This document shows positions 12,260-63,482 of a DNA stretch of 64,000 nucleotides, piece after piece. Origin of the DNA: Planctomycetota bacterium (GTDB lineage Bacteria; Planctomycetota; JAJSAM01; JAJVHW01); the NCBI GenBank assembly GCA_965248445.1, contig CBDFJG010000004.1:1600001-1664000 (forward strand), written 5' to 3'. The notes under the pieces were generated by a model. That model was not told the origin of the DNA, ran no database searches, and worked only from the letters and a program-made list of their open reading frames with translations. Each line of letters begins with the position of its first letter. Position 1 is the stretch's first letter. Made by a program: the position numbers and the translations under genes.

Positions 12260-13369
12260 TCACCAGGCTGCGACGAGCTTACGCCGGGTCGATTCGTCGT
12301 AGCGCTCGGGGAACTTCACGCGCTTACCGGTCAGGTCGCGAAGCGCGTCGTGGACGTGCTTGGCGAGCGCGAGCACGCCGCGCTGCTCCCGCTCGTCGTC
12401 TCCGGGAGGAGGCGGGTACGACTGCACCAGAGCCTCCTTCACGGGGGTCCGCGCCATCTTGTGCCTCTCCGCGATCCAGGCCAGCGCGTCGATGGCGATC
12501 TTTGTCAGCCCGTTACGCCACGCGCCCGTCGCTGCGTGCGGTGCAATCGCGGCGACGGACTCCGCATCGCCACACGCCGCTAGCGCCTTGACAGCATTGA
12601 TCCGCAGCACGTTCGGATTGAGACTCTCCTTCGGCTCCGCGACGACGGCGTCCAGGTGTCGCGCAACACCCGGAGTGGGGGACTCTGCGATCGCGGCGCA
12701 GACCAGGTAACGCAGCGGGTCGTTGGGAATGGCGAGCAGCTCCTCGGCCGCAGAGGAGAGAGCGCCCGGCTCCTCCTCGGCCAGGATCTCGACCGCGCGG
12801 TAGCGAACGACGATGTCGTTGTCGTCGAGCGCCGCGAGCGCGGCCTTCACCGACGGCTTCTCCTCGAGCTGTGCCGCGCGCTCTTCCGCGGCGGCAATCG
12901 CTCCGGCCGATGCGGTGCTCCGGATCTTCCCCACGCGCGCCTTCTTCACGGCGGCGAGGAAGCTCTCGACCGACCGCCCCGTGCTGCCCATGCGCTCGAG
13001 CGTCTCGGGGTGGATCAGCCAGTGCTGGGGGTACGACGTGAACCCGAACCGGATGCACGTGCGCTCCGCGGCGAGATCCCCCTCGTTCTTCGAGAAGTCG
13101 CGGAACACGTAGAGCCAGACCGCTTCGTCGTAGGCGGGCTCCAACTCCTCGCGGGGGAGCAACTGCTCCTCCATGACGACGCAGTGGGGTCAATACGTCT
13201 TCGTCAGGTAGACGAAGATCGGCACCTCGCGTTCGATCGCCTGCTTCTGCGCTGCGGCGAAGTCGCGCACCCACGGCGGTCCCTCGGGAGGCGTCTCGCT
13301 GCCTGCCATCGCGGTTACGAGCACGAGGCACGGCACCGCCAGGATCGTGAGCAGTCGCGACAGCCGCAT
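12260..13369 (-). CDS. Putative selenoprotein: secreted thioredoxin-fold (UPHC) plus HEAT-like repeats, 369 aa, Sec60
   Basis: Track ORFs 13190..13390 and 12260..13174 are in frame, joined by TAT TGA CCC CAC TGC GTC GTC ATG (Y-U-P-H-C-V-V-M); signal peptide, GGGAGG RBS, downstream hairpin. Confidence 0.88.
13153..13172 (-). promoter_or_regulatory. Putative SECIS hairpin (GGAGGAGC-AGUU-GCUCCCCC)
   Basis: 7 of 8 stem positions pair; AGUU loop begins 25 nt after the UGA. Confidence 0.75.
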
Positions 13370-13404
13370 GGTGGGTTCCTCCCGCGGCAAGTCTACGGGC
13401 TGAC

Positions 13405-14565
13405 TCAGTCCTGGATCTCCACGCTCTTCTCGACGTACTTCCCGCCGCTCAGCGTGTTGTTCGCCTCGACGTCGTTGGACTTCTCGTCGGTCCCCGCGCC
13501 GCCGTTGACCAGCAGCCCCTTCTCGAACGTGTTGCCGAAGATGTTCACGAAGTCGTCGCCGTCCTGCAGCAATGCCTTGACCTTCTTTGCGGCCGTGCTG
13601 TTGGACATTGCGATCTGGTCGCCGCCGTCTCCGGCCTTGAGTGACGCGCCCTTGGTGAGGGACGTCCCGTTGAAGACGCTGATGGAGTCGACACCGCCGC
13701 CGGTCGAGACCTTGAGCGCACCGCCGACGGTGGCTTCGTCGAAGTTCGTGACGTCGTCGCCGCCTCCGGTCTTGACCTTGACACCCTTCGGAAACTGATC
13801 ACGCGTGGACGTCAGGAACAGACCGCCGTCGCCGCCCGTGATCTTGACGGGCTTGCCGAATGTTGAGTCCTCGATCTGAACGACTTTGCCGCCGTCACCC
13901 GTCTTCATCTTGAAGCTCTTTGCGATTTCGCAACGCGCGATACGGACGTCGTCGCTGCCGTTACCGAGGTCGACGGTCACCTTGCCGTCGCAGTCAACCT
14001 CCTCGAGCGTGACAGAGTTGTTGCCCTCGCCGACGTCGATGACCACGGACTTCCCGACGGTGATGGCCCCGTATCCCATCGCGACCTGGACGATTTCGTT
14101 GCCGGCGCCACCGTTCACGCGGAGTGAGCCGGAGATCGTCGCGTCATAGACCGAGATCACACCGCCGCCGCCGCTGTTGGAGACGGTCAGGTCGTCGAAC
14201 CCTGTGCCCCCGTACCCAACGAAGAAGCTCTCTCCGTCGCCGTCGCCGAGACTGACGTCGACGTCCCCGAGGTCGAGCTCGGCGGAGATGTCGATTGAGT
14301 CGCCACCTCCGCGCATGTCGATGCGAATCCTCCTCTTCGGCAGGGCGAAGTTGAAGGAGCCGTTCTCTCCGTTGACCGTCGTGTTGTTGCCCTTGATCCG
14401 GACGTCAACACCCTCGTTGAAGACTGTGATGCTGTTGGCCTGGTCGTCGCCGGTGATGACGAGGTCCTTCCCCTGCACGTCGACGGTGATGTTCCCGTCG
14501 GCAAGCGCGAGCGGGGCCAGGATGAGGCATGCCAGGAGTGTGGTAGTGCGTGTGTTGGTCTTCAT
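13405..14565 (-). CDS. Secreted repetitive beta-helix-like protein
   Basis: Signal peptide; recurring GxGxD-x-V/I units. Confidence 0.8.
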   Translation of the reverse strand: MKTNTRTTTLLACLILAPLALADGNITVDVQGKDLVITGDDQANSITVFNEGVDVRIKGNNTTVNGENGSFNFALPKRRIRIDMRGGGDSIDISAELDLGDVDVSLGDGDGESFFVGYGGTGFDDLTVSNSGGGGVISVYDATISGSLRVNGGAGNEIVQVAMGYGAITVGKSVVIDVGEGNNSVTLEEVDCDGKVTVDLGNGSDDVRIARCEIAKSFKMKTGDGGKVVQIEDSTFGKPVKITGGDGGLFLTSTRDQFPKGVKVKTGGGDDVTNFDEATVGGALKVSTGGGVDSISVFNGTSLTKGASLKAGDGGDQIAMSNSTAAKKVKALLQDGDDFVNIFGNTFEKGLLVNGGAGTDEKSNDVEANNTLSGGKYVEKSVEIQD

Positions 14566-14730
14566 GGCGCGAGGCTATACGAGCACCGAGTCGGTTCGGC
14601 CGGGGCGAATTGGTACCCCGCCGGGTCCGATCGTTCCTCGTTGGTTACACAGCCGTAACGCGAATTGCCGTGAACCCGGGCCTGGCGTTTGCGTCTGTAG
14701 AGACAGCGCGAAGATCGCGAGGAGGCTGCC

Positions 14731-16230: not shown

Positions 16231-16238
16231 CGGCGCCC

Positions 16239-35556: not shown

Positions 35557-35633
35557 TGGTAGGCCGGCCAGGACTCGAACCTGGGACCAAGGGATTATGA
35601 GTCCCCTGCTCTGACCAACTGAGCTACCGGCCC
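35557..35633 (-). tRNA. tRNA with CAT anticodon, most likely tRNA-Ile2 (lysidine)
   Basis: GGGCCGGTAGCTCAGTTGGTCAGAGCAGGGGACT-CAT-AATCCCTTGGTCCCAGGTTCGAGTCCTGGCCGGCCTA-CCA; 77-nt cloverleaf, encoded CCA, Ile2-like anticodon arm and variable loop. Confidence 0.93.
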
Positions 35634-35816
35634 ACCGTGTTGCACGCCAAGCACTTACGGCGTTCGTCAGGTGCACCTGCGGACGCGCGGCTACTTCCCG
35701 GGCTACTTGTCGCCCTCGATCTCGGCACGCAGCGGCGCAGAGGCTATCCGTGCCGCGGGGCGAGTCCGAGTCCGTTCGCTACTCAGGTCCGACGTTGAGC
35801 GACTTATCGCAGCCGA

Positions 35817-36326
35817 TCAGCGGACCATCTCGCCAAGGCTGGCGAACCGAAGCATGTGTGCTTGTCCTGCATGGAGGGCGTACTCGTCGATCATCTTCAC
35901 CAATGCCGCCCCCAGCGGCCATCCGTGACCGGGCCCCTTCGTATCAATGGAGGCGATCTCCTTGATGACAGCGTCCGATTTCTCGACCTCGGCGAGATAC
36001 CCACGCAGGTCCTCGTCGATCGTCTCGACTGATCCACCGGCATAGTCCTCCTCCCCGCAGACCATCACCAGCTCACCACCGCCCATGCCCCGACTGAGAT
36101 AGAAGTGCTCCATCTGCGTCATGTGACGGACCAACCCCAGCACAGAGAGCTCCACCGGGGGCACTGAAAACGCGACGAGTCCTTCGGGCGTCAGGTCACG
36201 CAGCTTGCGGAGGAACTCGTGCCGCTGAAAGCGGAGCCATCCTTCCAGGTACTGACGAAGATCGCTGCTCGGCTCCGGCTGCTCCCATGCGGAGAGATCA
36301 AGGCCGCTCAAGATCTCGATCGACAT
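35817..36326 (-). CDS. DinB/DUF664-family protein
   Basis: LSVLGLVRHMTQME, MIDEYALHAGQAHMLR. Confidence 0.82.
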   Translation of the reverse strand: MSIEILSGLDLSAWEQPEPSSDLRQYLEGWLRFQRHEFLRKLRDLTPEGLVAFSVPPVELSVLGLVRHMTQMEHFYLSRGMGGGELVMVCGEEDYAGGSVETIDEDLRGYLAEVEKSDAVIKEIASIDTKGPGHGWPLGAALVKMIDEYALHAGQAHMLRFASLGEMVR

Positions 36327-36402
36327 GCGCGGCACACTAGTCCTCAGCCGTCAGTGACACAATCGAGTTGACCCGCTTCGGTGGACAGTCGGGTGCTTGC
36401 GG

Positions 36403-36616
36403 TCATGAGGGCGGGCCTGTCGTGCTGCTTCTCGTCACGACAGCCAAGAGGTGAACGGCCGAAATCACGGCCGTGCCGGTCCAGTTCTTCCACCACATGT
36501 TCAGCAGCACACCAATCAGCAGAGCGCCCCTCACCAGAGGGGCGCGCGCGTGCGGTATGCTGCGGGGCGAGCCCGACCCCTCCTGGAACCGCGATGCGAT
36601 CCACCCTACTCCGCCT
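36403..36616 (-). pseudogene. 3' remnant of a membrane-protein gene cut by the IS66 end
   Basis: Open hydrophobic frame LVRGALLIGVLLNMWWKNWTGTAVISAVHLLAVV running up to the IS boundary. Confidence 0.35.
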
Positions 36617-38333: not shown

Positions 38334-38368
38334 GCGAACTCGTCGGGGACGTCGCGGTGCTCCCGGCG

Positions 38369-38647
38369 CTAGCTGTCGTCTGACAGCTCGGTCAGCACTT
38401 CGTTCGTTCCGGTCACGCTGCGCCGCCCGTTGACGAACAGCACGAGATGCGGCACGCCGCCGATTCCGTGCTGCTTGGCGATGGGAGCCCGCTTCGGATC
38501 GCGAATCACGATCTTGCGCAGGTAGACGTCGTCGTGCTCTCTCGCGTGAGCCTCCAACTGAGGCTTCAACTCCCGGCAGGCGGGTCACCAGTCGGCTACG
38601 TACGCGAACACGGTCCGCCCGTGCGGCACCGCGCACGAGTCGAGCAC
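38369..38647 (-). CDS. Putative selenoprotein thioredoxin (ADW-U-PAC); 5' end uncertain, possibly truncated
   Basis: GCC GAC TGG TGA CCC GCC TGC CGG in frame with track ORF 38369..38569 (GIGGVPHLVLF cis-Pro motif); first in-frame GTG at 38647, no in-frame ATG. Confidence 0.75.
38549..38565 (-). promoter_or_regulatory. Putative SECIS hairpin (AGCCUC-AGUUG-GAGGCU)
   Basis: 6-bp stem; loop begins 25 nt after the UGA. Confidence 0.72.
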
Positions 38648-38805
38648 GAGAGCCTCGCCCTTGCTGATGGTCGCGACGGCGGCGCGGCTGGCCGGGTCCG
38701 CGTCACGACACTCTGCCCGAAGAGGCCGAGGCGCTCGCGACAGTGCTGCGCACGCGTCCCTTGCCGGCCACCGTCGAACTCGTTTCAGAGAGGTAGGGAC
38801 ACACG

Positions 38806-39242
38806 ATGCCGCGACGCGAGTATCGGGCTAGTGACGGCGACAGCGTGCTTGGCGTCGAGTGGTCAGGAAAGTGGGAGGACGTCCGGGTGACGCTCGACGG
38901 GGCGGAGATCGGGCAGATCTCCACGGAGCGCGAACTCGACCGCGGGAAGTCGTTCGAGACCCCATCCGGCGGGAGCGTGCGCGTCAAACTCCTGCGCGGT
39001 ATCGCCGCGAGGGACTTCGAGGTGCGCCTCGACGGGCGGTTGGCCGAGGGCTCGCCCAGCGACGCCGGCTCGCTGGTCAAGCTCTGCGGTGTCGATACGG
39101 CAGCATCAGCGTCAAGGAGATCCTGGTTCATGTCCCGGTGATCGGGCTGTTCACACTAGGCTTCACGGCGATATCGAAGTTGAAGGCGAAACCGGATACG
39201 GCGGCGGCCCGTAGGCGCCGGCGCCGCACCCGACGAACGTAG
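38806..39242 (+). pseudogene. Probable internally deleted or frameshifted hypothetical gene
   Basis: Plausible N-terminal domain (38806-39141) with a hydrophobic tail VPVIGLFTLGFTAISKLK in another frame. Confidence 0.45.
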
Positions 39243-39280
39243 CGCGGGGGTCGCGTAGCGAGCCGCGTGACGCGACGCAG

Positions 39281-41785: not shown

Positions 41786-41834
41786 GGTTCCGACTCTACT
41801 GGACAGCCGGTCGGGCGCTGGTGTTCCGCCGGTC

Positions 41835-43052
41835 TCAGAACTCCGTCGTGGTCACAGCGGGTGCGGCCTCGAAGTCGAGCACGAGCGCCAACGCGTCGTT
41901 GTCTCCGTCGCCGTCGGTGTCCACGTCCGCCGCGAGCGCCAGGATCGGTCCGAGGGGCGGGAGGTCGGCGACCTCGGCTTCCGCCGCGGCCGCGAGCAGT
42001 GCCGTCAGCACCTCGACGGGGACCGCGACGCCGATCTGCCCTTCGGCACCGGCCTCCGTGAGGCTGCCGGCGAGCCGTATCAGCGTCGTAACCGGGAGTT
42101 CGACACCGCCGAGGTCGAGGTCCGTTGAGTCCACGGCCACCGAGAACCCGCCCGACTCGAGTGTCCCGGCTGCGCGGGCAAGGGGAAACCCGTCGTCGCC
42201 GAGCAGGGCCGGTAGGACGACGAACTCCTCGGTCCCGGACGCGTTGTCGCCGGTGTCACCGTCCGTGTCGAGCCCCGGTACCACGCCGATCTGGATGAAC
42301 GGATCGTCGGTGAACGAGTCGAGACGCCAGATCTGGAGGAGCGTGACGACTGGGTTTGTGCTGACGAGTTCGTCGAAGAGCATGTTGACGTCCAAGTCGA
42401 GGCCCAATTGGTCGGCGGCCGCGAGGATCGCCGACAGCGAGTTGTCGGAATCGCCGTCCTGGTCCAGGTCGACGCCGCTCTCGGAGAGACCGACAGCCGA
42501 GACGACGAACGTCGCGTTCAGGTCGTCCCCGAATGCCAGCGTTCCGGCCGCGCGCAACGCACGGGAGTTCCACAGGAGCTTGGCAACGACGCTCGGCGAC
42601 AGATCGGCCCGGTGATGCAGACGGCGCACGCGGCGGCGCACTCTCTTCGGGCGGCCCTTCGTGGCGACTTCGTGCAGTTCTTCCAGCGTGTGGTGGATCA
42701 GTGCTTCGAATGCGCCGTTCAGCTTCCGGACCGCCGTGGAGAGGTCACGGTTGTTCGCGAACTTCGCGCGTGTGATCCGTGCGACGCGTGCGGCGATCCG
42801 CGCCTGCTCGGCCGCGGTGGATACTCCCTCGGTGTCCGCGAGCAGCTCGCGAGCGCGCGTCGCACAGCTGAACCGCCGGCGCACCGACGGCGTCTGGCTC
42901 CTCGTCAGGAGCGCTTCTTGGAGATCAACGAGTCGCGCATCGACTGCGCGGATTGCACTTCCGAGTTCGCTGTCGTCCGCGCCGTGTGCCGAAGCGGTGG
43001 TGGAGAGCAGGAGCAGGATCGGAACGGCCGCGAAGGCCAGTGGGATGCGCAT
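41835..43052 (-). CDS. Secreted hypothetical protein, paralog of 43110-44348
   Basis: Signal peptide; basic helical N-half; acidic C-half with DxDxDG motifs. Confidence 0.8.
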   Translation of the reverse strand: MRIPLAFAAVPILLLLSTTASAHGADDSELGSAIRAVDARLVDLQEALLTRSQTPSVRRRFSCATRARELLADTEGVSTAAEQARIAARVARITRAKFANNRDLSTAVRKLNGAFEALIHHTLEELHEVATKGRPKRVRRRVRRLHHRADLSPSVVAKLLWNSRALRAAGTLAFGDDLNATFVVSAVGLSESGVDLDQDGDSDNSLSAILAAADQLGLDLDVNMLFDELVSTNPVVTLLQIWRLDSFTDDPFIQIGVVPGLDTDGDTGDNASGTEEFVVLPALLGDDGFPLARAAGTLESGGFSVAVDSTDLDLGGVELPVTTLIRLAGSLTEAGAEGQIGVAVPVEVLTALLAAAAEAEVADLPPLGPILALAADVDTDGDGDNDALALVLDFEAAPAVTTTEF

Positions 43053-43109
43053 GATGTCACCCGACCCGGGACGTGGGGCGCAGAGCGTAGCACGCCGGCT
43101 GGGGGAGGA

Positions 43110-44348
43110 CTACGGCGCTGCCGGCACAGCCGTTGCGCGCACCGACTCGAAATCGAACGCCATGGAGAGAGCGTCCGCGCTCCCGTTGCCGTCGAGGTCG
43201 ATGTCGGCGGCGTTCGAGATCGCCAACTGGAGAAGAAACGGCACAGCCTGGCCGGTCGCGGTCTCCACGAGATCGAGGAACTCGGCTACCGGGAGGGCGA
43301 CCCCGAACACACCGTTCACCTGCGGCTCGCTGACGGTTCCGATCGCCCGTACGACGCCATCCTCGGGCAGCACGATGCCGCCGATGGTCTGCTCCTGACC
43401 CGTGAAGGTGACGTCGAAGCGACCGTTCGCGAGTGATGCGGCCGTGCGCGCTGACGGATGTCCATCGTCGTCGAGCCCCGGCCCGTACTCGAACTGCTCG
43501 GAGCCGCTGAAGTTGTCACTCGCGTCCGCATCCGTGTCCTGCCCCGAGATCATTCCGATCTCGATGAACGCGTCCTTCTCGAGCGAGTCGAGATTCCAGA
43601 GTTCGAGCAGCGTCACGGTGTCGCCGTTCGACACCGCGTCGGCGAGCACGGCGTCGATGTCGATCTCCTGACCGAAGTTCGCCGCGAGCGCGAGCAGCGT
43701 GGAGAGCGCATTGTCGGGGCTGCCGTCGCCGTCCAAGTCGAGTCCCTCGTCCGATGCGCCGAGCCCGGAGACGACCCACGTTGCCGTCTGCCCGCCGGAG
43801 ACGTACGGTCCGCCGGCCTTCAGCGCCCTTGCGACGAGCTTGTACGCGGCGGCATCGTCCGCCGCGGCCACGGCGAGATCCACGAGTGTCTGGATCTTGT
43901 TCCGGCGCTTCTCCAGACGCTTTCGCGCGCGCCCGGCCTTCTTCCCCGGACTCTGCAGCCCCGGGTTCTGGGTGAGCAGGACGTCGATGGAGCCGATCGC
44001 CGACACGGCAATGTCGTAGTGTGCGTCGCGCGCGGTGCCGACCACGACTTGCAGCTCCTCGTCCGTGCCCTTGAACTTCGACGCGACCTTCGCGACTTTC
44101 GCGCCCGCCTTCGCTTCGTTCGCCACCGACTTGGCGGTCTTGCTCTTCACCAGGAGCCGGCGCAACTGTCCGACCCGGCGTAGCTGCTTCGCCACGTCGC
44201 GCGTCTGCTCGCCTGCGCTCAGCTCGCCCTCGAGTGCCGACAGGCGGGAGTCCAACGGGTCCAGGATGCCGGAGCCGATCGACGCCGCGACTGCCGAGGC
44301 CGTGAACACGACGACCAGGACGATGGTGAGTAGCGATGTGGTTCGCAT
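43110..44348 (-). CDS. Secreted hypothetical protein, paralog of 41835-43052
   Basis: GLDLDGDGSPDNAL vs GVDLDQDGDSDNSL; TLLELW vs TLLQIW; DNFSGSEQF vs DNASGTEEF. Confidence 0.82.
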   Translation of the reverse strand: MRTTSLLTIVLVVVFTASAVAASIGSGILDPLDSRLSALEGELSAGEQTRDVAKQLRRVGQLRRLLVKSKTAKSVANEAKAGAKVAKVASKFKGTDEELQVVVGTARDAHYDIAVSAIGSIDVLLTQNPGLQSPGKKAGRARKRLEKRRNKIQTLVDLAVAAADDAAAYKLVARALKAGGPYVSGGQTATWVVSGLGASDEGLDLDGDGSPDNALSTLLALAANFGQEIDIDAVLADAVSNGDTVTLLELWNLDSLEKDAFIEIGMISGQDTDADASDNFSGSEQFEYGPGLDDDGHPSARTAASLANGRFDVTFTGQEQTIGGIVLPEDGVVRAIGTVSEPQVNGVFGVALPVAEFLDLVETATGQAVPFLLQLAISNAADIDLDGNGSADALSMAFDFESVRATAVPAAP

Positions 44349-44400
44349 TGGAGGGCTCCGTCACGCCGAGCCGTCTGCTCGACGCGGCCTCGGGAGAGTA

Positions 44401-45096
44401 TCAGCCGGCGGCGGCTTTGGGCACGCCGGCCGCCGCCACGGCAGTCAGGAGGGCGTCGAGGTCGCGCCAGTCGGGGAGCACGTGCGTCACTCCCTCCCTG
44501 CGGAGCCGATCGGCGCGGGCGCCGGTCGCACGGCCGACGAGCGGCCAGCCGAGTGCGCGGCAGGTCCGCGCGTCCCACACGGCGTCGCCGACATAGACGA
44601 CGCGCTCGTGCGCGCCACCACGGCTGCGGGCAGCGCGGAGGATCTCCTCGCGTGAAGGACCGTCCTCGGAGAAGGCTCCGGGCATGCCTCGAAGGTCCAG
44701 GCCGGAGTGCCGGACCTTGAGACGCGCCGTGACTTCGAAGCACCCGGTCGCGAGCGCGAGTGGATGACCCGCGTCTGCAAGTGTTGCGATCGCCTGATTG
44801 GCTCCGTCGACCAAGCGGAACGAGGTCCGCGACGACGCGGCATCGGCCTCGAGACGATCCACGAAGGTAGTGCGGAACGAACTGACCTCATGATCCAGCG
44901 GTGCACGGCCGTGCGCCTCTCTCCAGAGCGAGTCGACCAGCCCGGTGTCCGACGCATGTGGGTAGGATTCCCACGTCATGTCGAGTTCGATGTCGCCGAG
45001 GTGCTCGCGGACGGTCGCCACGAACGCGCGGGCGTCCGTGTGGTACGTCTCGGTGAGCGTGCCGTCCAGGTCGAACACGACCAGGGGCAGCGTCAT
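44401..45096 (-). CDS. HAD-family hydrolase
   Basis: VVFDLDGTL, ALATG, VYVGDAVWD. Confidence 0.92.
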   Translation of the reverse strand: MTLPLVVFDLDGTLTETYHTDARAFVATVREHLGDIELDMTWESYPHASDTGLVDSLWREAHGRAPLDHEVSSFRTTFVDRLEADAASSRTSFRLVDGANQAIATLADAGHPLALATGCFEVTARLKVRHSGLDLRGMPGAFSEDGPSREEILRAARSRGGAHERVVYVGDAVWDARTCRALGWPLVGRATGARADRLRREGVTHVLPDWRDLDALLTAVAAAGVPKAAAG

Positions 45097-45323
45097 CTGT
45101 CGCTGCGGATCTCAGCTTCGGCCGCGGCGTACGCATCCGCGGCAGGCGGAGTCGCCTCGGTTGCTCCCGCCGAGTGCTTCAGGTTGCCGACGCGGGACTC
45201 GAGCGCCTTGACGCGCTCGCGCAGATCGTCGCGCTGGTGGTCGAGGCGCACCATCCGCAGGAAGACGAAGACGAACGCCGCCAGCAGCGCGGCCAAGACA
45301 ATCAGCAACCAGGGGTCCGGCAT
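45093..45323 (-). CDS. Small membrane-anchored coiled-coil protein
   Basis: N-terminal TM; ATGA overlap with the HAD gene. Confidence 0.7.
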   Translation of the reverse strand: MPDPWLLIVLAALLAAFVFVFLRMVRLDHQRDDLRERVKALESRVGNLKHSAGATEATPPAADAYAAAEAEIRSDR

Positions 45324-45365
45324 GACGGTCGGATCCTACGCGCCCCCGGAGCAACCCAAGCAGGG

Positions 45366-48107
45366 CTACTCGCGGCTTGTGACTGCGGGCGTGACGCGGC
45401 CCAGGAACAGCAGCACCGACGAGGTCGTGCGCACCGGCCCGTTCAGTTTGAACCGGCTGGTCTCCTCGAAGCTGCCGTCGTCGAACTGAATCGTCATCAG
45501 GTGGCGTGAGCCCGTGGCGTACCAGCGCTCGCCGGCCAGGATCTCGATGCTCAACAGCATGGCGAGTCGCTGGATCGCGAAGAGGTACGCGGAGTATCCC
45601 GAGTCGCTGCTCGCGCTGACCAGCGCGCCGTCGGCGAACACCGGCTGACGGCGGATGTCGAAGTAGCGGTCCAGCCACGCGAGTCCGCGTTGCACGCCCT
45701 GCAGACTGTCGTAGTCGAACGTGCTCGACTTGTCGCCGAGCTCACCCGCCTTCGCGATCACGGCCAGCGACGTCAGCGACGCCACCGTCGTGCCCGTGAG
45801 CCAATCGTCGTGGCCCTTGATGCCACGGGCACCGAACAGCCCGTTCGCCGCCCGGAACGTCTTGGCGAAGCAGGAGCGCGGCACCTTCGCGCCGCGGCGC
45901 TGCGCCAGCCACAGGCTCTCTGCAGCGAACAGCGCTTCGAACGCCTCGCCGTCTTCTTTGGAGTCGAGCGCGCCGGCCCAGAACCCGTTGGACTTCTGGC
46001 CCTTCACGATGGCCTTGATGAGCCCCTTGACGAGATCTCCCTCGGGATCCTCGCCGCCACCGATCAGTGCGCGCAGCGCCAGTGTGGTCTGCTGCGTGCC
46101 GCGGTACGCGGACTTGCCGTCCACGAGTTCCTGCGCCTGTTCGCGCAGGATGGTCCACGCTTTCGCGACGCGTTCGTCGTCTTTGTCGATGCCGACAGTC
46201 GCGAGTGTCCACAGGCACTGCGCGTTCGAGAACATGGTCGGCTTGTTGATCGAACCGATTCTGGCGGTCTTCGACGAACGGAACTCGCGCAGCGCGAACG
46301 CTCCGGAGCCCGTCCTGTTGCACGTCAGGAGGAAGTCGACGGCGTTGTCCATCATGTCGCGGATCTTGTCGGCCTCGTCGGCCGAGGGGGGCGAAATGCG
46401 CTGGCGCCGGGCTTCGACGGTCGCGGCGACGTTCGGGACCGCCTTCTCACCGTCGCAGAGCACGCAGTCGGCGGATTCGAACGGGATCTTGCCCTTCTTC
46501 TTGCACGTCTTGCACCCGATCGCGCCGTTCTTGCACCTGTCGCACTTGAGCCCGCCCTTGCCGTTGCAGCGGTCGCACTTGGTCGCCGAAGCGATGGTGC
46601 CGTCGGTGAAGACCATCAGGCGGATGCCGTGGCCGTTGCAGCGTCTGCAGAGGGACTTTGCACGGCCGGAGCACTTGCCGCAGCCCTCGTTGCCCGTGCC
46701 GCCGCACTCGTCGCACGTGGTCATGAGCCCTTCGACGGCGCACAGCGGGCACGCGGCGTCGTCGTCCTCCCCGCACAGACGGGACAACAGATCGGTCACG
46801 CCGGACTCGGGGCACGGAATGAGGCCCTTCTCGCACCCGGGGCAGTCGCGCGTGACCTTGCCGCGGCGGCAGACGGGGCACTTCTCGTTGCCCTTCCCTG
46901 TGCACACCCTGCACTTCACCTCGTTGTCACCGCCGCAGTACCTGCACTTCTCCTTGCGGTCGTGCTGCGGGAAGTAGTGCCATCCGTCGCTGCAGGACAC
47001 GGACGGGCACGTCTGGCGGCCGCGGCAGGACGAACACGCGACCTTCGCTGTGCCGGCGCAGTCAGTGCAGGCGATCTCCAGCTTGCCCTTGCCCTCGCAG
47101 AGGGTGCAGGTCAGCTTGCCGGCGTCGCAGACGCCTTCCTCGGCGGCCGCGGGGGCGATCTGCTTGGCTGCGTCGGCGAGCGGCATTCCGAACGCCTTGG
47201 CGAATGTCGCGGAGTCGGCTTCATCGGCGCCGGCGAAGACCGACACAGCGTCGGTGATGTTGACGCCCTTCGCGACGCCCAGTTCCACGAGCCGGCCCAT
47301 GAAGGCGCGCGCGTTCGTCGGGGGACCGTCCTCGGCGTCCAGCGCCGGCGCCAGGTCGAACGCTTCGCTGCCTGCGCACCGGTGGCCGGGTGTGGGGAGC
47401 GGAACGCCGTCGATCTGCGCCGAGAGCCAGAGTTGCACGCCCTGGCGCAGCCACTTGGGCGCTTCGCCGTCCAGAGGCCGCTGTATGAGCAGTCGTTCGG
47501 CCATGACGTCGCCGAACCTCGCCACGTCGGGCGCGAGACCCGACGCGCGACGCCAGAGTTCGACGCGCAGGCGGCCGGCGGCGTCGAGCACGTCGCGCTG
47601 CACGGTCGCACCATCTTCACGCTTGCGCAGGTGTGGCAGCGTGCCGCGCTGTGACACTGCACCCGCAGTGGAACCCCGGCGCACCAGCAGCGCTCCGCCG
47701 TCCTTGCTCAAGATCACACGTCCCGCGTCGCCCGGCGTCTTGACCTCGACGACGATCAACTCGGACGGCGTGTACCCCTCGGGCGCCAGGCCCGCCTTGG
47801 TCATCGCGGCGACGCCGCGCAGGATCGCCGCGCTGACCCTCGCCGCCCGCGCCTCCCGGCGCTCGGCGGTGCCGGGAGTGCAGAAAACGAGTCCAGCCGG
47901 CTTCACACGGACCCGCTCGTCCGAGCGAGTGAGGCGGTTCTGCGCCTTGTACAGGCGGCTCGCCAGATCCTCGTCCGACACGCCGGACTCCGCGAGCTCG
48001 TCGAAGATCGAGTCTTGGGCGGCCGCAGGGGGCGCGGTCCCCAGCACCAGCAGTGCGATGCCGAGCGTCGCAACGATCAGAGGCCTATTCAGAGGTAATG
48101 TGCGCAT
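45366..48107 (-). CDS. Secreted protein with 15 CxxC motifs and a C-terminal alpha/alpha-barrel-like (prenyltransferase-repeat-like) domain
   Basis: GGAGG RBS, signal peptide; CxxCxGxG repeats; QKSNGFW, RGLAWL, QFDDGSF motifs. Confidence 0.82.
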   Translation of the reverse strand: MRTLPLNRPLIVATLGIALLVLGTAPPAAAQDSIFDELAESGVSDEDLASRLYKAQNRLTRSDERVRVKPAGLVFCTPGTAERREARAARVSAAILRGVAAMTKAGLAPEGYTPSELIVVEVKTPGDAGRVILSKDGGALLVRRGSTAGAVSQRGTLPHLRKREDGATVQRDVLDAAGRLRVELWRRASGLAPDVARFGDVMAERLLIQRPLDGEAPKWLRQGVQLWLSAQIDGVPLPTPGHRCAGSEAFDLAPALDAEDGPPTNARAFMGRLVELGVAKGVNITDAVSVFAGADEADSATFAKAFGMPLADAAKQIAPAAAEEGVCDAGKLTCTLCEGKGKLEIACTDCAGTAKVACSSCRGRQTCPSVSCSDGWHYFPQHDRKEKCRYCGGDNEVKCRVCTGKGNEKCPVCRRGKVTRDCPGCEKGLIPCPESGVTDLLSRLCGEDDDAACPLCAVEGLMTTCDECGGTGNEGCGKCSGRAKSLCRRCNGHGIRLMVFTDGTIASATKCDRCNGKGGLKCDRCKNGAIGCKTCKKKGKIPFESADCVLCDGEKAVPNVAATVEARRQRISPPSADEADKIRDMMDNAVDFLLTCNRTGSGAFALREFRSSKTARIGSINKPTMFSNAQCLWTLATVGIDKDDERVAKAWTILREQAQELVDGKSAYRGTQQTTLALRALIGGGEDPEGDLVKGLIKAIVKGQKSNGFWAGALDSKEDGEAFEALFAAESLWLAQRRGAKVPRSCFAKTFRAANGLFGARGIKGHDDWLTGTTVASLTSLAVIAKAGELGDKSSTFDYDSLQGVQRGLAWLDRYFDIRRQPVFADGALVSASSDSGYSAYLFAIQRLAMLLSIEILAGERWYATGSRHLMTIQFDDGSFEETSRFKLNGPVRTTSSVLLFLGRVTPAVTSRE

Positions 48108-58971: not shown

Positions 58972-59028
58972 CGACTCTTACCACGATGGCGGCGGACCTC
59001 CCGGGACGTCGCCAGGACCACGGAAGGA

Positions 59029-59450: not shown

Positions 59451-61053
59451 CCGCATCTGTTCACGAGACGTCGCGATGACGGTGCTTTCGGAGTCCACAG
59501 GGTCAGATCTTGGCCAGGCGAGGGCGGATGCTGTCGTCGTTGCCACAAGGGCAACGCGAGTGAGCGGCCGAAACGGCGCGGATTCTGCGGTGTGGGCAGA
59601 CCGTAGGCCGGGCGGTGGTGTGGCGGACGGCGCGGCGGGACGTCAGGTCGGCTTCGGGGATGCCAGCAGTCGTTGCGCGCAGCGCTCGAAGACGTGCTGC
59701 CAGGGCCACGACGAGGACATCGAGACCCAGATCCGGCGCGTCGTGATCCGCACGAGCGCGCCGATCTTGAGCAGCCGCAGGCGGATCGTGCCGGCTTGCG
59801 CACGCGCCATCTCGGTGCCGGCGAGACCGATGCGTCGCAGCGCACAGGTCAGGACGTAGGCCATGGCCGACATGGCCATCCGCACGGCGTTGCCCTGCAT
59901 CGTGTGCACCGACAGACGGGTGCCGAAGAGCTCGAGCTGCTGCTCCTTGATGCGATTCTCCGCCTCGCCCCGGGCGCAGTAGAGCTGCTCGTAGAGACGC
60001 TTGCTGCTCCAGCTACGAGGCGGCAGATTGGTCACCACGAAGCGGGGATTGCGCTTGCCGCCCGGCAGGTGCTCGGCCTTGGCGACCACGCGACGCCTCT
60101 GGCTCCAGCTCCCCAGCGTGGTCCAGGCAAAGTCGCGAAAGACCCGGGCTGCTCGGCCGGTCTGCACGGCACGGGCTGCGGCCTCATCGAGCGCGTCTTC
60201 GACGTGTCGCTCAAGGCGCTCATTGCGCGCCATGCCCAGCAGGTAGAAGTGGCCGGCGGCCTCGCACCAGGCCATCAGCTCCTCGCGGCAAAAGCCCGAG
60301 TCTGCGCGCACGAGCACCTTGGCCCGGGGCCAGCGGCGCCGCAGACGTAAGACCAGCGCACGGAGCTCGTCCACGACTCCGCGCGCGGGATCTCTGTCAG
60401 CGGTCTGGAGCCGAGCGAGCAAGAGGTGCTCGCCGCAGAAGACGTACAGCGGCAGGTAGCAGTAGTGCCCGTAGTAGCCGTGGAAGAAGCGGCCCTCCTG
60501 CCGGCCGTGCAGCCGCACGTCGGAGTGGTCCAGGTCCAGCACGAGCAGGCCCGGATCCTCCGGCCCCATGGCCTCGCAGAAGACGTCGCTGAGCACGCTG
60601 TCCACGCGCTCCTGGTCCATCTCGATCTTGGCGTAGCGCGTCTGTGCCGTGGCGCCGAGCTGCGTGGTCTCGAGCCGCGAGAGCGTCGGGTGCGTGGCCA
60701 GAGCACCCTCGCGCTTGCCGCACGCCGCGGCAAACAGCGGGTCCTTGCCGACATGGTCGTGGTCCACCAGATCCTCGTAGCCCGCGCACAGCCCGAAGAC
60801 CCGCTGACGCAGCATCTGGCCGACCGTGTGCTCGACCCGACGCGGGTCCCGGTGGTCCCCGAAGCAGCGCGCAAACCGCGAGAGCAGATCGATGCGACGA
60901 TCGGTCCGCTCGAGCAGCAGCACGCCCCCGTCGCTCGTCACGGTACCGGCGTCGAAGCGCGTCACCGCGGTGCGTCCACAGATGCCCGCGAAGAGGGTCC
61001 CCTGCGGGCTACAGTCTGTCGTCATCGGGCCGGCGCTCCTGTCGGTGCAAGTA
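59451..61053 (-). mobile_element. IS1380-family copy lacking its upstream IR end (first 1607-bp tandem unit)
   Basis: Matches 61058-62660 throughout by visual comparison; bounded by CTAG at 59447 and 61054. Confidence 0.9.
59643..61025 (-). CDS. IS1380-family transposase
   Basis: TSDGGVLLL, HGRQEGRFFHGYYGHYCYLPL, RADSGF, YCARGEAENRIKEQQ. Confidence 0.95.
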   Translation of the reverse strand: MTTDCSPQGTLFAGICGRTAVTRFDAGTVTSDGGVLLLERTDRRIDLLSRFARCFGDHRDPRRVEHTVGQMLRQRVFGLCAGYEDLVDHDHVGKDPLFAAACGKREGALATHPTLSRLETTQLGATAQTRYAKIEMDQERVDSVLSDVFCEAMGPEDPGLLVLDLDHSDVRLHGRQEGRFFHGYYGHYCYLPLYVFCGEHLLLARLQTADRDPARGVVDELRALVLRLRRRWPRAKVLVRADSGFCREELMAWCEAAGHFYLLGMARNERLERHVEDALDEAAARAVQTGRAARVFRDFAWTTLGSWSQRRRVVAKAEHLPGGKRNPRFVVTNLPPRSWSSKRLYEQLYCARGEAENRIKEQQLELFGTRLSVHTMQGNAVRMAMSAMAYVLTCALRRIGLAGTEMARAQAGTIRLRLLKIGALVRITTRRIWVSMSSSWPWQHVFERCAQRLLASPKPT

Positions 61054-61057
61054 CTAG

Positions 61058-62726
61058 CCGCATCTGTTCACGAGACGTCGCGATGACGGTGCTTTCGGAG
61101 TCCACAGGGTCAGATCTTGGCCAGGCGAGGGCGGATGCTGTCGTCGTTGCCACAAGGGCAACGCGAGTGAGCGGCCGAAACGGCGCGGATTCTGCGGTGT
61201 GGGCAGACCGTAGGCCGGGCGGTGGTGTGGCGGACGGCGCGGCGGGACGTCAGGTCGGCTTCGGGGATGCCAGCAGTCGTTGCGCGCAGCGCTCGAAGAC
61301 GTGCTGCCAGGGCCACGACGAGGACATCGAGACCCAGATCCGGCGCGTCGTGATCCGCACGAGCGCGCCGATCTTGAGCAGCCGCAGGCGGATCGTGCCG
61401 GCTTGCGCACGCGCCATCTCGGTGCCGGCGAGACCGATGCGTCGCAGCGCACAGGTCAGGACGTAGGCCATGGCCGACATGGCCATCCGCACGGCGTTGC
61501 CCTGCATCGTGTGCACCGACAGACGGGTGCCGAAGAGCTCGAGCTGCTGCTCCTTGATGCGATTCTCCGCCTCGCCCCGGGCGCAGTAGAGCTGCTCGTA
61601 GAGACGCTTGCTGCTCCAGCTACGAGGCGGCAGATTGGTCACCACGAAGCGGGGATTGCGCTTGCCGCCCGGCAGGTGCTCGGCCTTGGCGACCACGCGA
61701 CGCCTCTGGCTCCAGCTCCCCAGCGTGGTCCAGGCAAAGTCGCGAAAGACCCGGGCTGCTCGGCCGGTCTGCACGGCACGGGCTGCGGCCTCATCGAGCG
61801 CGTCTTCGACGTGTCGCTCAAGGCGCTCATTGCGCGCCATGCCCAGCAGGTAGAAGTGGCCGGCGGCCTCGCACCAGGCCATCAGCTCCTCGCGGCAAAA
61901 GCCCGAGTCTGCGCGCACGAGCACCTTGGCCCGGGGCCAGCGGCGCCGCAGACGTAAGACCAGCGCACGGAGCTCGTCCACGACTCCGCGCGCGGGATCT
62001 CTGTCAGCGGTCTGGAGCCGAGCGAGCAAGAGGTGCTCGCCGCAGAAGACGTACAGCGGCAGGTAGCAGTAGTGCCCGTAGTAGCCGTGGAAGAAGCGGC
62101 CCTCCTGCCGGCCGTGCAGCCGCACGTCGGAGTGGTCCAGGTCCAGCACGAGCAGGCCCGGATCCTCCGGCCCCATGGCCTCGCAGAAGACGTCGCTGAG
62201 CACGCTGTCCACGCGCTCCTGGTCCATCTCGATCTTGGCGTAGCGCGTCTGTGCCGTGGCGCCGAGCTGCGTGGTCTCGAGCCGCGAGAGCGTCGGGTGC
62301 GTGGCCAGAGCACCCTCGCGCTTGCCGCACGCCGCGGCAAACAGCGGGTCCTTGCCGACATGGTCGTGGTCCACCAGATCCTCGTAGCCCGCGCACAGCC
62401 CGAAGACCCGCTGACGCAGCATCTGGCCGACCGTGTGCTCGACCCGACGCGGGTCCCGGTGGTCCCCGAAGCAGCGCGCAAACCGCGAGAGCAGATCGAT
62501 GCGACGATCGGTCCGCTCGAGCAGCAGCACGCCCCCGTCGCTCGTCACGGTACCGGCGTCGAAGCGCGTCACCGCGGTGCGTCCACAGATGCCCGCGAAG
62601 AGGGTCCCCTGCGGGCTACAGTCTGTCGTCATCGGGCCGGCGCTCCTGTCGGTGCAAGTACTAGCGAGTACGAGCACTTAGACAGACGACGGCCCGCTCA
62701 GATTCCCGGCTGGTGAACGATTCGGG
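61058..62726 (-). mobile_element. Complete IS1380-family element (about 1669 bp) flanked by CTAG
   Basis: Imperfect IRs CCGCATCTGTTCAC and CCCGAATCGTTCAC (reverse complement of 62713-62726); CTAG at 61054 and 62727. Confidence 0.88.
61250..62632 (-). CDS. IS1380-family transposase, identical second copy
   Basis: Same 460-aa translation as 59643..61025. Confidence 0.95.
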   Translation of the reverse strand: MTTDCSPQGTLFAGICGRTAVTRFDAGTVTSDGGVLLLERTDRRIDLLSRFARCFGDHRDPRRVEHTVGQMLRQRVFGLCAGYEDLVDHDHVGKDPLFAAACGKREGALATHPTLSRLETTQLGATAQTRYAKIEMDQERVDSVLSDVFCEAMGPEDPGLLVLDLDHSDVRLHGRQEGRFFHGYYGHYCYLPLYVFCGEHLLLARLQTADRDPARGVVDELRALVLRLRRRWPRAKVLVRADSGFCREELMAWCEAAGHFYLLGMARNERLERHVEDALDEAAARAVQTGRAARVFRDFAWTTLGSWSQRRRVVAKAEHLPGGKRNPRFVVTNLPPRSWSSKRLYEQLYCARGEAENRIKEQQLELFGTRLSVHTMQGNAVRMAMSAMAYVLTCALRRIGLAGTEMARAQAGTIRLRLLKIGALVRITTRRIWVSMSSSWPWQHVFERCAQRLLASPKPT

Positions 62727-62732
62727 CTAGCC

Positions 62733-62761
62733 TTGCGGCTGCTCCGCACAAGTGATAACCT
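62733..62761 (+). promoter_or_regulatory. Putative sigma70 promoter of the 62829 gene
   Basis: TTGCGG-N17-TAACCT with extended -10 TG. Confidence 0.5.
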
Positions 62762-62828
62762 TTCCCTTGTCTAGACACCGCCTGGGCACCCGTTCAGGCA
62801 CACGCGATCCCACGTGGGAGATACAAGC

Positions 62829-63482
62829 ATGACGAGCAATAGCTTTGTTGTGGCTGCGACTCTCGGAAGCCTGCTGATGCTCGGCGGCCTTTCGTACGTC
62901 CAGCCTTCATCTGCTGGTTGAGGTCCTCCGTTCGCCTGCGGTGCAGGCACGAAGACCTTGGAAGTTGCCTGGGACTCGGGACTCCCGACTCCTGGTGAGG
63001 TCGAAGCCGCCATTACCGGTGTGCTCGCGTCCGAGACGGTTGGAGACGAGGAAGAAGAGGCGGAGTGGACGGTCGAAGAGCTGACCGACGCGAAGCCGAC
63101 GTTCCTCTACTACTACCGGAACAACAACACCGACCGGAACATGCACGAGGACGAGTACGAGTTCTCGCGTCGCTTCGAGATGGGCCTTCAGGAGAAGACC
63201 ATCACGCGCCTCAACGAGAAGTGGCGTGCGAAGAAGCTGCCCATCGACATGGATGTGGAGCTGAAGAAGCGTGAAGAGATGACCCGCATCGAGCTTTGGT
63301 CTGCCATGGAGACCAAGATGAAGGCGCTGACGATCAAGAAGAACGATCAGAAGCTCCTGGGCGCGGGCCCGCTCATGCGCATCCTTCGCAAGTACGAGAA
63401 GGTGAACAAGAATCTCTGCAAGAAGGAGATCAAGCGCCTCGAGAAGATCCAGAAGGACCTCGAGAAGAGCGCCTCGAAGTAA
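62829..63482 (+). CDS. Putative novel secreted selenoprotein, 217 aa, Sec31 (AG-U-GPPFAC)
   Basis: GGGAG RBS + ATG 62829; signal-peptide-like 30 codons; TGA 62919-62921; frame continues into track ORF 62958..63482; hairpin follows. Confidence 0.75.
62921..62958 (+). promoter_or_regulatory. Putative SECIS (GCCUGC-GGU-GCAGGC upper stem; AGGUC/GACCU lower stem)
   Basis: Loop begins 18 nt after the UGA and contains GU. Confidence 0.7.

What the first reader, a model, noticed from the sequence alone, without database searches (positions are those of the whole stretch)
12260..63482. Hidden selenoproteome: three UGA-recoded genes in 64 kb
Seen: three unrelated loci each have an in-frame TGA with coding sequence on both sides, a nearby Cys (UPHC, UPAC, UGPPFAC) and a 3' hairpin with GU in the loop 18-25 nt downstream, while many other genes here use TGA as a true stop. 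Known: bacterial Sec insertion needs UGA plus an immediately downstream SECIS bound by SelB, and UxxC replaces CxxC in thioredoxin-fold selenoproteins. Inference: three per 64 kb suggests an unusually selenoprotein-rich lineage with exported Sec proteins that standard gene calling fragments.
Basis: partly seen in the sequence, partly recalled or inferred. Interest (0 to 1): 0.9.

Follow-up and report, generated by a model that had tools for sequence, protein, structure and literature searches.

The report
Selenoprotein-rich planctomycete with uncatalogued family
Three apparent stop codons in this uncultured planctomycete are almost certainly read as selenocysteine, the genome hides some thirty or more such genes, and one of the three belongs to an exported protein family, missing from the catalogue I read, that carries its selenium on a short arm at the start of the mature protein.

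Summary
All three TGA codons and their hairpins are there. The genome has selA, selB, selD and tRNA-Sec, and 32-38 UGA-recoded genes. That is far above the 'rich' threshold of six but below the published top ten (46-63). The window is a rich tile: the genome mean is 0.45 per 64 kb. Gene 1 (13369-12260) is an exported UxxC thioredoxin/HEAT protein with TGA kept in 5 of 5 full-length orthologs. Gene 2 (TGA 38587) is a UxxC thioredoxin that has lost its N-terminal anchor and may be decaying. Gene 3 (62829-63482) is not UxxC: Sec follows the signal peptide (G-U-GPPFAC) on a thioredoxin fold without CxxC. Its TGA and hairpin are kept in 12 of 12 genomes, and Cys-only homologs carry a Cys-rich arm there. 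It has no Pfam or NCBIfam match and none in the 119-family table I read. It lies head-to-head with selD in 4 of 7 same-family relatives. Public gene calls cut genes 1 and 3 at the TGA. This scan has noted N-terminal-Sec proteins of this kind before on other DNA. The arm's role (redox relay or soft-metal/selenium binding) is inferred.

The parts
12260..13369 (-). Gene 1: 369-aa exported Thioredoxin_7-type protein with HEAT repeats; U60 in a UxxC site (U-P-H-C)
   Evidence: Translation. PF13899 at residues 33-86 spans U60 and HEAT_2 lies at 175-248. GGAGG precedes the ATG. The signal peptide is judged by eye and by hydropathy.
13190..13192 (-). Sec codon (TGA) of gene 1
   Evidence: TGA at the same site (TKTH-U-PHC) in 5 of 5 full-length orthologs, G002, G008, G010, G012 and G014. 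Distant homologs have CxxC (L043, L044, L050, L052).
13156..13169 (-). SECIS upper stem-loop of gene 1 (5 bp, loop AGUU, 25 nt after the TGA)
   Evidence: The same hairpin folds in L034-L038.
38369..38700 (-). Gene 2: thioredoxin (PF00085) with U-P-A-C. The N-terminal membrane anchor of its relatives is missing; the first in-frame start is a GTG at 38647.
   Evidence: PF00085 E 7e-10 spans U. Homology starts at 38695-38701. Start codons.
38585..38587 (-). Sec codon (TGA) of gene 2
   Evidence: Of the 4 relatives with a match, G005 has TGA and G001, G006 and G007 have TGC at this site; the paralog L117 in this genome has TGA. No differences in contigs of four runs of one sample.
38549..38565 (-). 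SECIS upper stem-loop of gene 2 (6 bp, loop AGUUG, 25 nt after the TGA)
   Evidence: G005 (TGA) keeps the same loop on a longer stem; the three TGC orthologs do not have this loop.
62829..63482 (+). Gene 3: 217-aa precursor of an uncatalogued family: signal peptide, G-U-GPPFAC arm, thioredoxin fold without CxxC, C-terminal helix
   Evidence: Translation. GGAG lies 8 nt before the ATG. No Pfam or NCBIfam match at E<=0.1. Fold.
62829..62915 (+). Predicted signal peptide of gene 3, ending in an A-x-A-type motif before Gly30
   Evidence: The hydrophobic core and the small-x-Ala motif are kept in 12 of 12 orthologs. Judged by eye; no signal-peptide predictor was run.
62919..62921 (+). Sec codon (TGA) of gene 3; residue 2 of the predicted mature protein
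   Evidence: TGA in 12 of 12 genomes at 28-66% identity to gene 3. Cys at or next to this position in 7 full-length public homologs.
62934..62948 (+). SECIS stem-loop of gene 3 (6 bp, loop GGN, 18 nt after the TGA); it overlaps the codons for A-C-G-A-G
   Evidence: 91.7% of cells paired against 22-43% in slid controls; one pair changed on both sides in 2 sequences. Loop G22 and G23 are invariant.
62958..63419 (+). Thioredoxin-fold domain of gene 3 (about residues 44-197); no Cys at the usual CxxC site
   Evidence: VIA-align Z 9.6, rmsd 3.1, 103 aligned to 3f9u; Z 8.1 to DsbH 2ju5. No conserved Cys column in the domain. The placing of the CxxC site at E-F-S-R is by analogy and recalled.
59494..62731 (-). 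Two tandem copies of a DDE_Tnp_1_4 insertion sequence directly upstream of gene 3, where several relatives have selD
   Evidence: Pfam; copies mapped. The same element also lies directly upstream of selD on contig C3.

Best explanation
All three TGA codons are selenocysteine codons decoded in the standard bacterial way: SelB binds the hairpin just downstream and brings tRNA-Sec. They are part of a selenoproteome of about 32-38 genes, mostly cell-envelope thioredoxin-fold proteins. Genes 1 and 2 use Sec as the first residue of the CxxC site; gene 2 has lost its anchor and may be cytoplasmic or decaying. Gene 3 is exported and cleaved before Gly30, which leaves Sec at position 2 of a short arm (G-U-G-P-P-F-A-C-G) on a thioredoxin fold with no active-site cysteines of its own. 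Most likely the arm is the reactive centre and the fold presents it or binds the partner, with the arm acting as a selenol/thiol redox relay in the periplasm. Shown: codons, hairpins, machinery, conservation, Cys counterparts, predicted fold. Inferred: translation as Sec, export, cleavage site, chemistry.
For: Machinery: selA, tRNA-Sec, selB and selD, all over their family cut-offs; selD itself has an in-frame TGA. TGA-specific enrichment of x-x-C plus hairpin. TGA kept in 5 of 5 (gene 1) and 12 of 12 (gene 3) orthologs, and TGA/TGC alternation at gene 2. All 11 relatives with a gene-3 ortholog have a selA match. Of 49 public homologs of gene 3, 6 keep the signal peptide and all 6 have Cys there; the other 43 begin downstream of the site. 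A homologous subfamily (hhalign probability 94.4, E 8.7e-8) has A-x-[AG]-G-U-C at the same place, with hairpins of varying sequence, in 9 genomes read at that site, and G-U-U in a further copy. It also keeps an invariant Cys in the fold (C138) that could be the arm's partner. More distant members in five genomes of other families also have TGA right after a signal peptide. Inside this genome, 9 of 14 Thioredoxin_7, 5 of 19 AhpC-TSA and 3 of 7 Thioredoxin matches contain a TGA.
Against: No experiment and no RNA or peptide data. The hairpin covariation test for gene 3 is weak on its own: one pair with a two-sided change, 8 of 500 shuffles reach the score, and the sequences are related. Cys37 is Pro in 2 of 12 orthologs, and gene 3's fold has no conserved Cys, so in those two no resolving thiol is evident. 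The Cys-only homologs have 2-5 Cys in the arm, which fits metal binding at least as well as a two-electron relay. One member of the paralogous subfamily has neither U nor C at the N-terminus (L102). Gene 2 has no convincing start upstream of its homologous region. Three accepted genes (DsbD-like, C3+1530783, selD) have only a 3-bp upper stem. The confidence given is for the whole statement; Sec decoding alone is about 0.97 for genes 1 and 3 and 0.85 for gene 2 as a live gene.
Confidence: 0.55

Rival explanations
1. Same Sec decoding, but the N-terminal arm of gene 3 is a binding hook for a soft metal or for selenium itself (free amine, selenolate, Cys). The protein would act as a periplasmic carrier, store or sensor, possibly tied to selenium supply for SelD.
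For: The Cys-only homologs carry Gly/Cys-rich arms with up to five Cys (P0010, P0042, P0044, P0048, P0051, P0082). The paralogous subfamily has invariant H114, H117 and C138. Gene 3 lies head-to-head with selD in G004, G005, G006 and G007, and one gene away in G003; G001 has terC there instead. The review says the in vivo selenium donor of SelD is not fully known (PMC13188914, section 7). A likeness to the N-terminal nickel hook of NiSOD is recalled, not tested.
Against: No selD within 1.5 kb in the four f2 genomes (neighbours QueG, a methyltransferase and HIT) or in G001; in G002 the contig ends 285 bases upstream. The five linked genomes are kin, so this may be one ancestral arrangement. No ligand data.
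Confidence: 0.35
2. The TGA in gene 3 is a true stop: a 30-aa peptide is made, and the domain is translated separately from a downstream start, as the databases have it.
For: 43 of 49 public homologs are called this way. A TTG lies at 62958.
Against: The called starts differ from homolog to homolog, while signal peptide, TGA, G-x-P-F and hairpin are kept in 12 of 12. Cys-containing homologs are called full length.
Confidence: 0.03
3. Gene 3 is a lipoprotein-type precursor in which A-G-U is a lipobox and Sec is the lipidated residue.
For: A-G-[U/C] resembles the end of a lipobox (recalled motif), and it is invariant in the 12 orthologs.
Against: The residue before A-G is polar or charged (S, D, K, N, E). 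A polar stretch, often with Pro, separates it from the hydrophobic core, and an A-x-A motif ends before the Gly. Some homologs put extra residues between A-G and the first Cys (P0044).
Confidence: 0.04
4. The TGAs are sequencing errors, nonsense mutations or a general TGA=Trp/Gly code.
For: The genome does hold broken genes with in-frame stops where paralogs have W, R, Q or S. Gene 2 looks damaged at its 5' end.
Against: TGA ends 2546 of 4079 called genes. These three TGAs align with Cys or with TGA in other genomes. Of the 21 TGAs that aligned with a non-Cys residue or gap in a paralog, 20 had no GU-loop hairpin.
Confidence: 0.03

Closest known systems
Bacterial Sec insertion through an in-ORF SECIS (consensus model as given in PMC13188914, section 5, read in full)
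   Same: [quoted passage not shown]
   Different: Nothing in the mechanism.
UxxC thioredoxin-fold selenoproteins: Trx (PF00085) and thiol:disulfide interchange protein (PF13098), listed in Table 1 of PMC13188914
   Same: Genes 1 and 2 have U at the first Cys of CxxC inside a thioredoxin-clan match.
   Different: Gene 1 adds HEAT repeats and has no named NCBIfam family (best NF041199, 16.8 bits against a cut-off of 300). Gene 2 lacks the anchor of its orthologs. Gene 3 has its Sec outside the fold.
Extracytoplasmic thioredoxin-fold domains (DsbD C-terminal type 3f9u and 1vrs; DsbH 2ju5)
   Same: Fold of gene 3 (Z 8.0-9.6) and of its paralog (Z up to 12.0); export signal.
   Different: No CxxC; the reactive residue sits on an N-terminal arm; sequence identity is 8-21%.
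Selenoprotein-rich bacteria: Syntrophobacter fumaroxidans 39 (PMC5029168, passages); BSepDB top ten 46-63 (PMC13326102, Table 2)
   Same: Tens of Sec genes per genome.
   Different: This is a planctomycete with a heme-copper oxidase gene. Its set is mostly envelope thioredoxin folds, and no TGA was found inside four molybdopterin-domain matches. No planctomycete is named in the BSepDB top ten. The one planctomycete paper found speaks of six putative antioxidant selenoproteins in strain P1 (PMC4807772, passages).
C-terminal Gly-Cys-Sec-Gly arm of animal thioredoxin reductase, and the N-terminal nickel hook of NiSOD (both recalled, no call)
   Same: A reactive Sec or Cys near a chain end; the paralogous subfamily reads Gly-Sec-Cys-Gly.
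   Different: Unrelated folds; analogy only.

Membership tests
Bacterial Sec-decoded gene | In-frame UGA with homologous coding sequence on both sides | tested here: met
   Family matches span U in genes 1 and 2; orthologs align on both sides in gene 3.
Bacterial Sec-decoded gene | SECIS: loop 16-37 nt after UGA, G in the first two loop positions, stem of 4 bp or more, energy at or below -7.5 kcal/mol | tested here: met
   Spacing 25, 25 and 18 nt; stems 5, 6 and 6 bp; -17.5, -15.5 and -16.7 kcal/mol over 45 nt. At 68% GC the energy criterion does not discriminate.
Bacterial Sec-decoded gene | selA, selB, selC and selD in the genome | tested here: met
   all over the curated cut-offs.
Bacterial Sec-decoded gene | Cys- or Sec-containing homologs at the same position | tested here: met
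Bacterial Sec-decoded gene | Selenium shown in the protein | not testable with these tools
   Needs 75Se labelling or mass spectrometry.
UxxC thioredoxin-fold selenoprotein (genes 1 and 2) | U at the first Cys of CxxC inside a thioredoxin-clan domain | tested here: met
   PF13899 over its cut-off for gene 1 and PF00085 over its cut-off for gene 2.
UxxC thioredoxin-fold selenoprotein (gene 2) | Intact gene with a start upstream of the domain | tested here: inconclusive
   The first ATG/GTG/TTG is at 38647, about 18 codons inside the homologous region, with GAGG 5 nt upstream; CTG codons lie at 38788 and 38743.
UxxC thioredoxin-fold selenoprotein (gene 3) | U within a UxxC or CxxU site of the fold | tested here: not met
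   U31 lies before the aligned fold (about residues 44-197) and no Cys column is conserved in the domain.
Any curated NCBIfam or Pfam family (gene 3) | Score at the family's cut-off | tested here: not met
   0 families at E<=0.1 in Pfam and in NCBIfam release 20.
Exported (signal peptidase I) protein (genes 1 and 3) | Signal peptide with a cleavage motif | tested here: inconclusive
   Hydropathy and motif by eye; no predictor available.
Selenoprotein-rich organism | At least six selenoprotein genes (definition in PMC5029168) | tested here: met
   32 genes supported by family models or homologs, 38 with weaker candidates.
Record-size selenoproteome | 46 or more genes (BSepDB top ten) | tested here: inconclusive
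   My count is 32-38. The scan misses short, frameshifted or hairpin-poor genes, and the genome is 92% complete.

The most novel reading that the evidence does not exclude
Uncultured Planctomycetota have a class of exported selenoproteins in which the reactive Sec has left the thioredoxin fold for the tip of the mature N-terminus. The member in this window, ancestrally paired head-to-head with selD and replaced by poly-Cys arms in its Cys-only homologs, is a periplasmic selenium or soft-metal carrier that feeds or reports to the selenophosphate pathway. The architecture alone is about 0.9 likely; the probability given is for the link to selenium supply.
Probability: 0.15. Interest if true: 0.85.

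Novelty: new variant of a known kind. Interest (0 to 1): 0.6.

Why it matters
It adds a phylum that the recent review and database texts I searched do not mention to the selenoprotein-rich bacteria, with an envelope-centred set in an organism that has an oxygen-reducing oxidase gene. It also shows why one family is missed. Gene callers drop the signal peptide and the Sec, and BSepDB finds genes by searching with known families (PMC13326102, section 7). A small, soluble, single-domain protein with Sec at residue 2 is easy to express and assay, so the question of what an N-terminal Sec arm does can be tested directly. If the selD linkage is functional, it would give a candidate for how selenium reaches SelD, which the 2026 review calls incompletely understood.

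Tried and rejected
A pattern scan of genome contigs with gene 3 found no relative. ESM Atlas gave no usable hit, which shows neither novelty nor absence. A sequence search of PDB with alignment A1 gave best E 0.15. Foldseek gave no match at E<=0.001, though all top rows were thioredoxin folds. No RNA holder was listed. The scan's own findings gave no look-alike by sequence. Candidates fetched but dropped before the count of 38: 7 of the 40 regions. Four are two separate genes or a true stop by Pfam (L086, L090, L092, L095); L087 has Q/K/H in paralogs and no G-loop hairpin; L093 and L094 have no family match across the TGA. The other 33 regions, the window's three genes and two double-TGA genes make 38. 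Twenty further weak candidates printed were not fetched, apart from the FG-GAP gene. Three extra Cys-aligned TGAs were dropped after inspection. One search was meant to count TGA-containing Thioredoxin_7 genes per relative, but 105 matches were not listed, so no counts are drawn from it; TGA-containing matches do appear in f1 and f2 genomes. Literature searches; none of the listings showed a paper on this family. Haft and Tolstoy 2025 (PMC12013261) is not held, so its families were seen only through the review's Table 1 and NCBIfam. The groundwater MAG study (review ref. 66), which reports unvalidated new candidates, was not read. BSepDB's supplement is cut in storage; I saw only that its species list has 752 'planctomyc' hits, not per-genome counts or Table S2. 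These unseen sources bear on the claim that the family is uncatalogued.
Full report
Observation. The three motifs occur once each in the window: TKTY-U-PHC at 13192(-), ADW-U-PAC at 38587(-) and SSAG-U-GPPFAC at 62919(+). Each is followed by a 5-6 bp hairpin whose loop starts 25, 25 and 18 nt after the TGA and has G in its first two positions. This fits the bacterial SECIS model as given in PMC13188914 (section 5, read in full). TGA is otherwise the main stop codon: 2546 of 4079 genes called by my own dicodon model and 27 of 44 in the window.

Machinery and lineage. The window is G000:C4:1600001-1664000 of a 5.40-Mb genome in four contigs, 92% complete. selA, tRNA-Sec(UCA), selB and selD all pass their family cut-offs, and selD has its own in-frame TGA. 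The phylum is Planctomycetota by the record title of L111, which is identical to a same-family relative; a homolog of the paralogous family is also labelled Planctomycetes. selA passes its cut-off in 49 of 61 genomes searched, G000 included, and all 16 same-order relatives have a match. G000 also encodes a heme-copper oxidase subunit I.

Chance. I scored all 139,898 stop codons in six frames. Among those with coding-like sequence on both sides, a GU-loop hairpin follows 47 of 405 TGA, 19 of 361 TAG and 3 of 61 TAA. Of these, Cys stands at +3 after 16 TGA and after no TAG or TAA. With looser filters, 19 of 43 TGA-x-x-C sites have the hairpin, against 0 of 16 for the other two stops. Independently, a TGA lies inside 9 of 14 Thioredoxin_7, 5 of 19 AhpC-TSA and 3 of 7 Thioredoxin matches in the genome.

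Size of the selenoproteome. I fetched 40 candidate regions and scanned them with TGA read as U; 33 were kept and 7 dropped. With the window's three genes and two double-TGA genes this gives 38. For 28 a redox-family model spans the U (one only at E 0.009): SelD, a deiodinase-like protein, two Trx7/PDZ-type genes with two U each, an ArsC-like protein, a SelW-like protein, three AhpD-like proteins, two DUF3179, one DUF1223, and 16 thioredoxin, redoxin or DsbD-type domains. Four more rest on homologs: gene 3, its two paralogs, and C4+1210341, whose matches in three relatives each contain one TGA (position not checked). Six rest on motif or hairpin alone. A hydrophobic segment lies upstream of U in 31 of 38 (crude, no control). 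The mean is 0.45 per 64 kb; 3 of 83 tiles hold three, with about 0.9 expected. So this window is a rich tile, not a measure of the genome. Published marks: six defines 'rich' and 39 was the 2016 record (PMC5029168, passages); the BSepDB top ten span 46-63 and name no planctomycete (PMC13326102, section 11). The string 'planctomyc' does not occur in the main text of PMC5029168, PMC13188914, PMC12013277 or PMC13326102, though BSepDB's species list includes planctomycetes. One paper reports a few planctomycete selenoproteins (PMC4807772, passages).

Gene 1. A 369-aa protein with a signal-like N-terminus, Thioredoxin_7 across U60 and HEAT repeats. Five full-length orthologs (51-56% identical) among 60 relatives all have TGA at the same site and the same hairpin. 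The 59-aa stub that ends at the TGA is in public collections. It is an ordinary UxxC selenoprotein.

Gene 2. A thioredoxin with U-P-A-C. Of 4 relatives with a match among 20, one has TGA with the same loop and three have TGC without it. The four orthologs and the in-genome paralog have a hydrophobic N-terminal segment; this copy does not. Its similarity begins near 38700, and the first ordinary start codon is a GTG at 38647, inside the similar region. Contigs from four runs of one sample, probably the source, show no difference over 38122-47000, so this is not an evident assembly slip. The codon is Sec by descent; the gene is either a shortened cytoplasmic form or decaying.

Gene 3. A 217-aa precursor with no Pfam or NCBIfam match. 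It has one ortholog in 7 of 7 same-family genomes and in 4 of 5 genomes of a sister family, and none in the other 48 searched. All 12 have a signal-like peptide ending small-x-Ala, then G-TGA-G-[PAV]-P-F. The hairpin is kept (91.7% of cells paired, 22-43% in slid controls), with one pair changed on both sides in two sequences; this test is weak on its own. Cys37 is Pro in those two. In public collections, 43 of 49 homologs start downstream of the site, including this gene's own 174-aa call. The 6 that keep the signal peptide have Gly/Cys-rich arms, as does P0010 from the other search. AlphaFold2 (run with Cys for U; mean pLDDT 83.9) and VIA-align give a thioredoxin fold of the DsbD/DsbH type over residues 44-197 (Z 9.6, rmsd 3.1, 103 aligned). 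U31 lies before the fold, and the fold has no conserved Cys.

A wider family. G000 has three more distant copies: C4+680592 (AEAG-U-CP), C1-334643 (PPT-U-PG) and a Cys form on C3. This subfamily is homologous to gene 3 (hhalign 94.4, E 8.7e-8) and was found in 11 of 40 relatives. Of the 15 loci returned, 13 could be read at the N-terminus: 9 have G-U-C, one G-U-U, one T-U-P, one Cys only and one neither. The hairpins differ freely in sequence. Its arm is predicted disordered (pLDDT under 50, residues 29-64), whereas the segment after U in gene 3 is moderately ordered (74 for residues 31-40). Its fold is a clear thioredoxin (Z 12.0, rmsd 2.1, 104 aligned) with invariant H114, H117 and C138. A profile search found matches in 20 of 401 genomes of the phylum. 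Of the 8 outside the order, five have TGA right after a signal peptide (G-U-G, C-U-G, G-U-C) with a hairpin, two are second domains of longer proteins, and one has no U.

Neighbourhood. Gene 3 lies head-to-head with selD in G004, G005, G006 and G007 and one gene away in G003. G001 has terC there, G002's contig ends, and the four f2 genomes have tRNA-modification genes. In G000 the same insertion sequence lies directly upstream of both gene 3 and selD, now on different contigs. That fits an insertion followed by rearrangement, but with about 70 copies of the element it could be chance. The linked genomes are kin.

How it works. Shown: codons, hairpins, machinery, conservation, Cys counterparts and predicted fold. 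Inferred: SelB-dependent decoding, export, cleavage before Gly30, and Sec at mature position 2. For the arm I put a selenol/thiol redox relay at 0.55, because of the fold, the paired Cys in most members and C138 in the paralogs. I put a soft-metal or selenium binding hook at 0.35, because of the poly-Cys homologs, the His-His-Cys set and the selD linkage. A lipidated Sec, a true stop or an artefact share the remaining 0.10. The Gly codons of the arm supply the SECIS loop, so peptide and RNA constraints overlap. Most Cys-only homologs keep C-G-x-G although they need no hairpin, which argues that the Cys matters to the protein.

Novelty. The decoding mechanism and genes 1 and 2 are known kinds. 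Gene 3's architecture matches none of the 119 families in Table 1 of PMC13188914 by domain and motif (parts 1 and 2 of section 7 read); I judged this from names, motifs and the empty NCBIfam scan, not by aligning to each representative. Eight literature searches listed no description of it. Two relevant sources could not be read (see Tried and rejected). This scan has already noted exported N-terminal-Sec thioredoxin-fold proteins of Planctomycetota in other genomes; I reached the reading before that look-up (note), and those notes are not independent support. What this locus adds is the G-U-G-P-P-F-x-C subfamily, its poly-Cys homologs, the selD linkage and a genome-wide count. Verdict: real, a new variant of a known kind, interest 0.6.

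Noticed in passing
G000:C2:719266 (+) and G000:C3:1611745 (-): Two more genes with two in-frame TGAs: DH-U-U-PSF with an 8-bp hairpin, and R-U-DP-U-K in a Thioredoxin_7 match. C3:1539463 has R-U-VP-U-AGC (Trx7/PDZ family). One hairpin would have to serve both codons.
   Followed up: partly
L109:1465-1470 (G003): Tandem TGA TGA right after a signal peptide (G-G-U-U-A-GGG) in a member of the paralogous subfamily.
   Followed up: no
G000:C4:1210341 (+), L084: Exported protein with L-D-E-E-F-C-U-T-N and an 8-bp hairpin, no Pfam or NCBIfam match; matches in three relatives each contain a TGA. The motif recalls animal selenoprotein N (from memory, untested).
   Followed up: partly
G000:C4:226830 (-), C4:812149 (+), C2:189625 (-), C3:877035 (+): Unnamed candidates with 6-7 bp hairpins: a small membrane protein (AFA-U-PNC), a membrane protein (AGT-U-VV), a leucine-rich-repeat protein with U inside a repeat, and an FG-GAP protein (PDG-U-SCVW). 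Homologs were not checked.
   Followed up: no
G000:C3:1081689 (-): selD's own downstream hairpin has only a 3-bp upper stem, yet a similar weak fold appears in selD of G004, G005 and G007.
   Followed up: no
window 59494-62731 and genome-wide: A DDE_Tnp_1_4 insertion sequence has 78 hits in the genome, about 70 near full length and over 99% identical, several in tandem pairs: a recent burst.
   Followed up: partly
window 35557-38148: tRNA-Met (35557-35633) followed by a multi-copy element (about 36620-38148; summed contig depth 100-390 against 5-30 around it) next to gene 2.
   Followed up: no
G001-G060: selA passes its cut-off in 49 of 61 Planctomycetota genomes searched, mostly one per family, so Sec use looks widespread in the uncultured part of the phylum.
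   Followed up: no
L111:1554-2465 and G000:C4:135754 (-): The gene between selD and gene 3 in G003 is a Thioredoxin_7 protein with H-G-F-Y-C-P-P-C-W, while G000 has a candidate with H-G-F-Y-U-N-P-C-W: a likely Cys/Sec pair.
   Followed up: no
G000:C1:92080 (+), C3:878512 (+), C4:1561052 (-): In-frame TGAs without a G-loop hairpin where paralogs have other residues: broken genes, useful as negative controls.
   Followed up: partly
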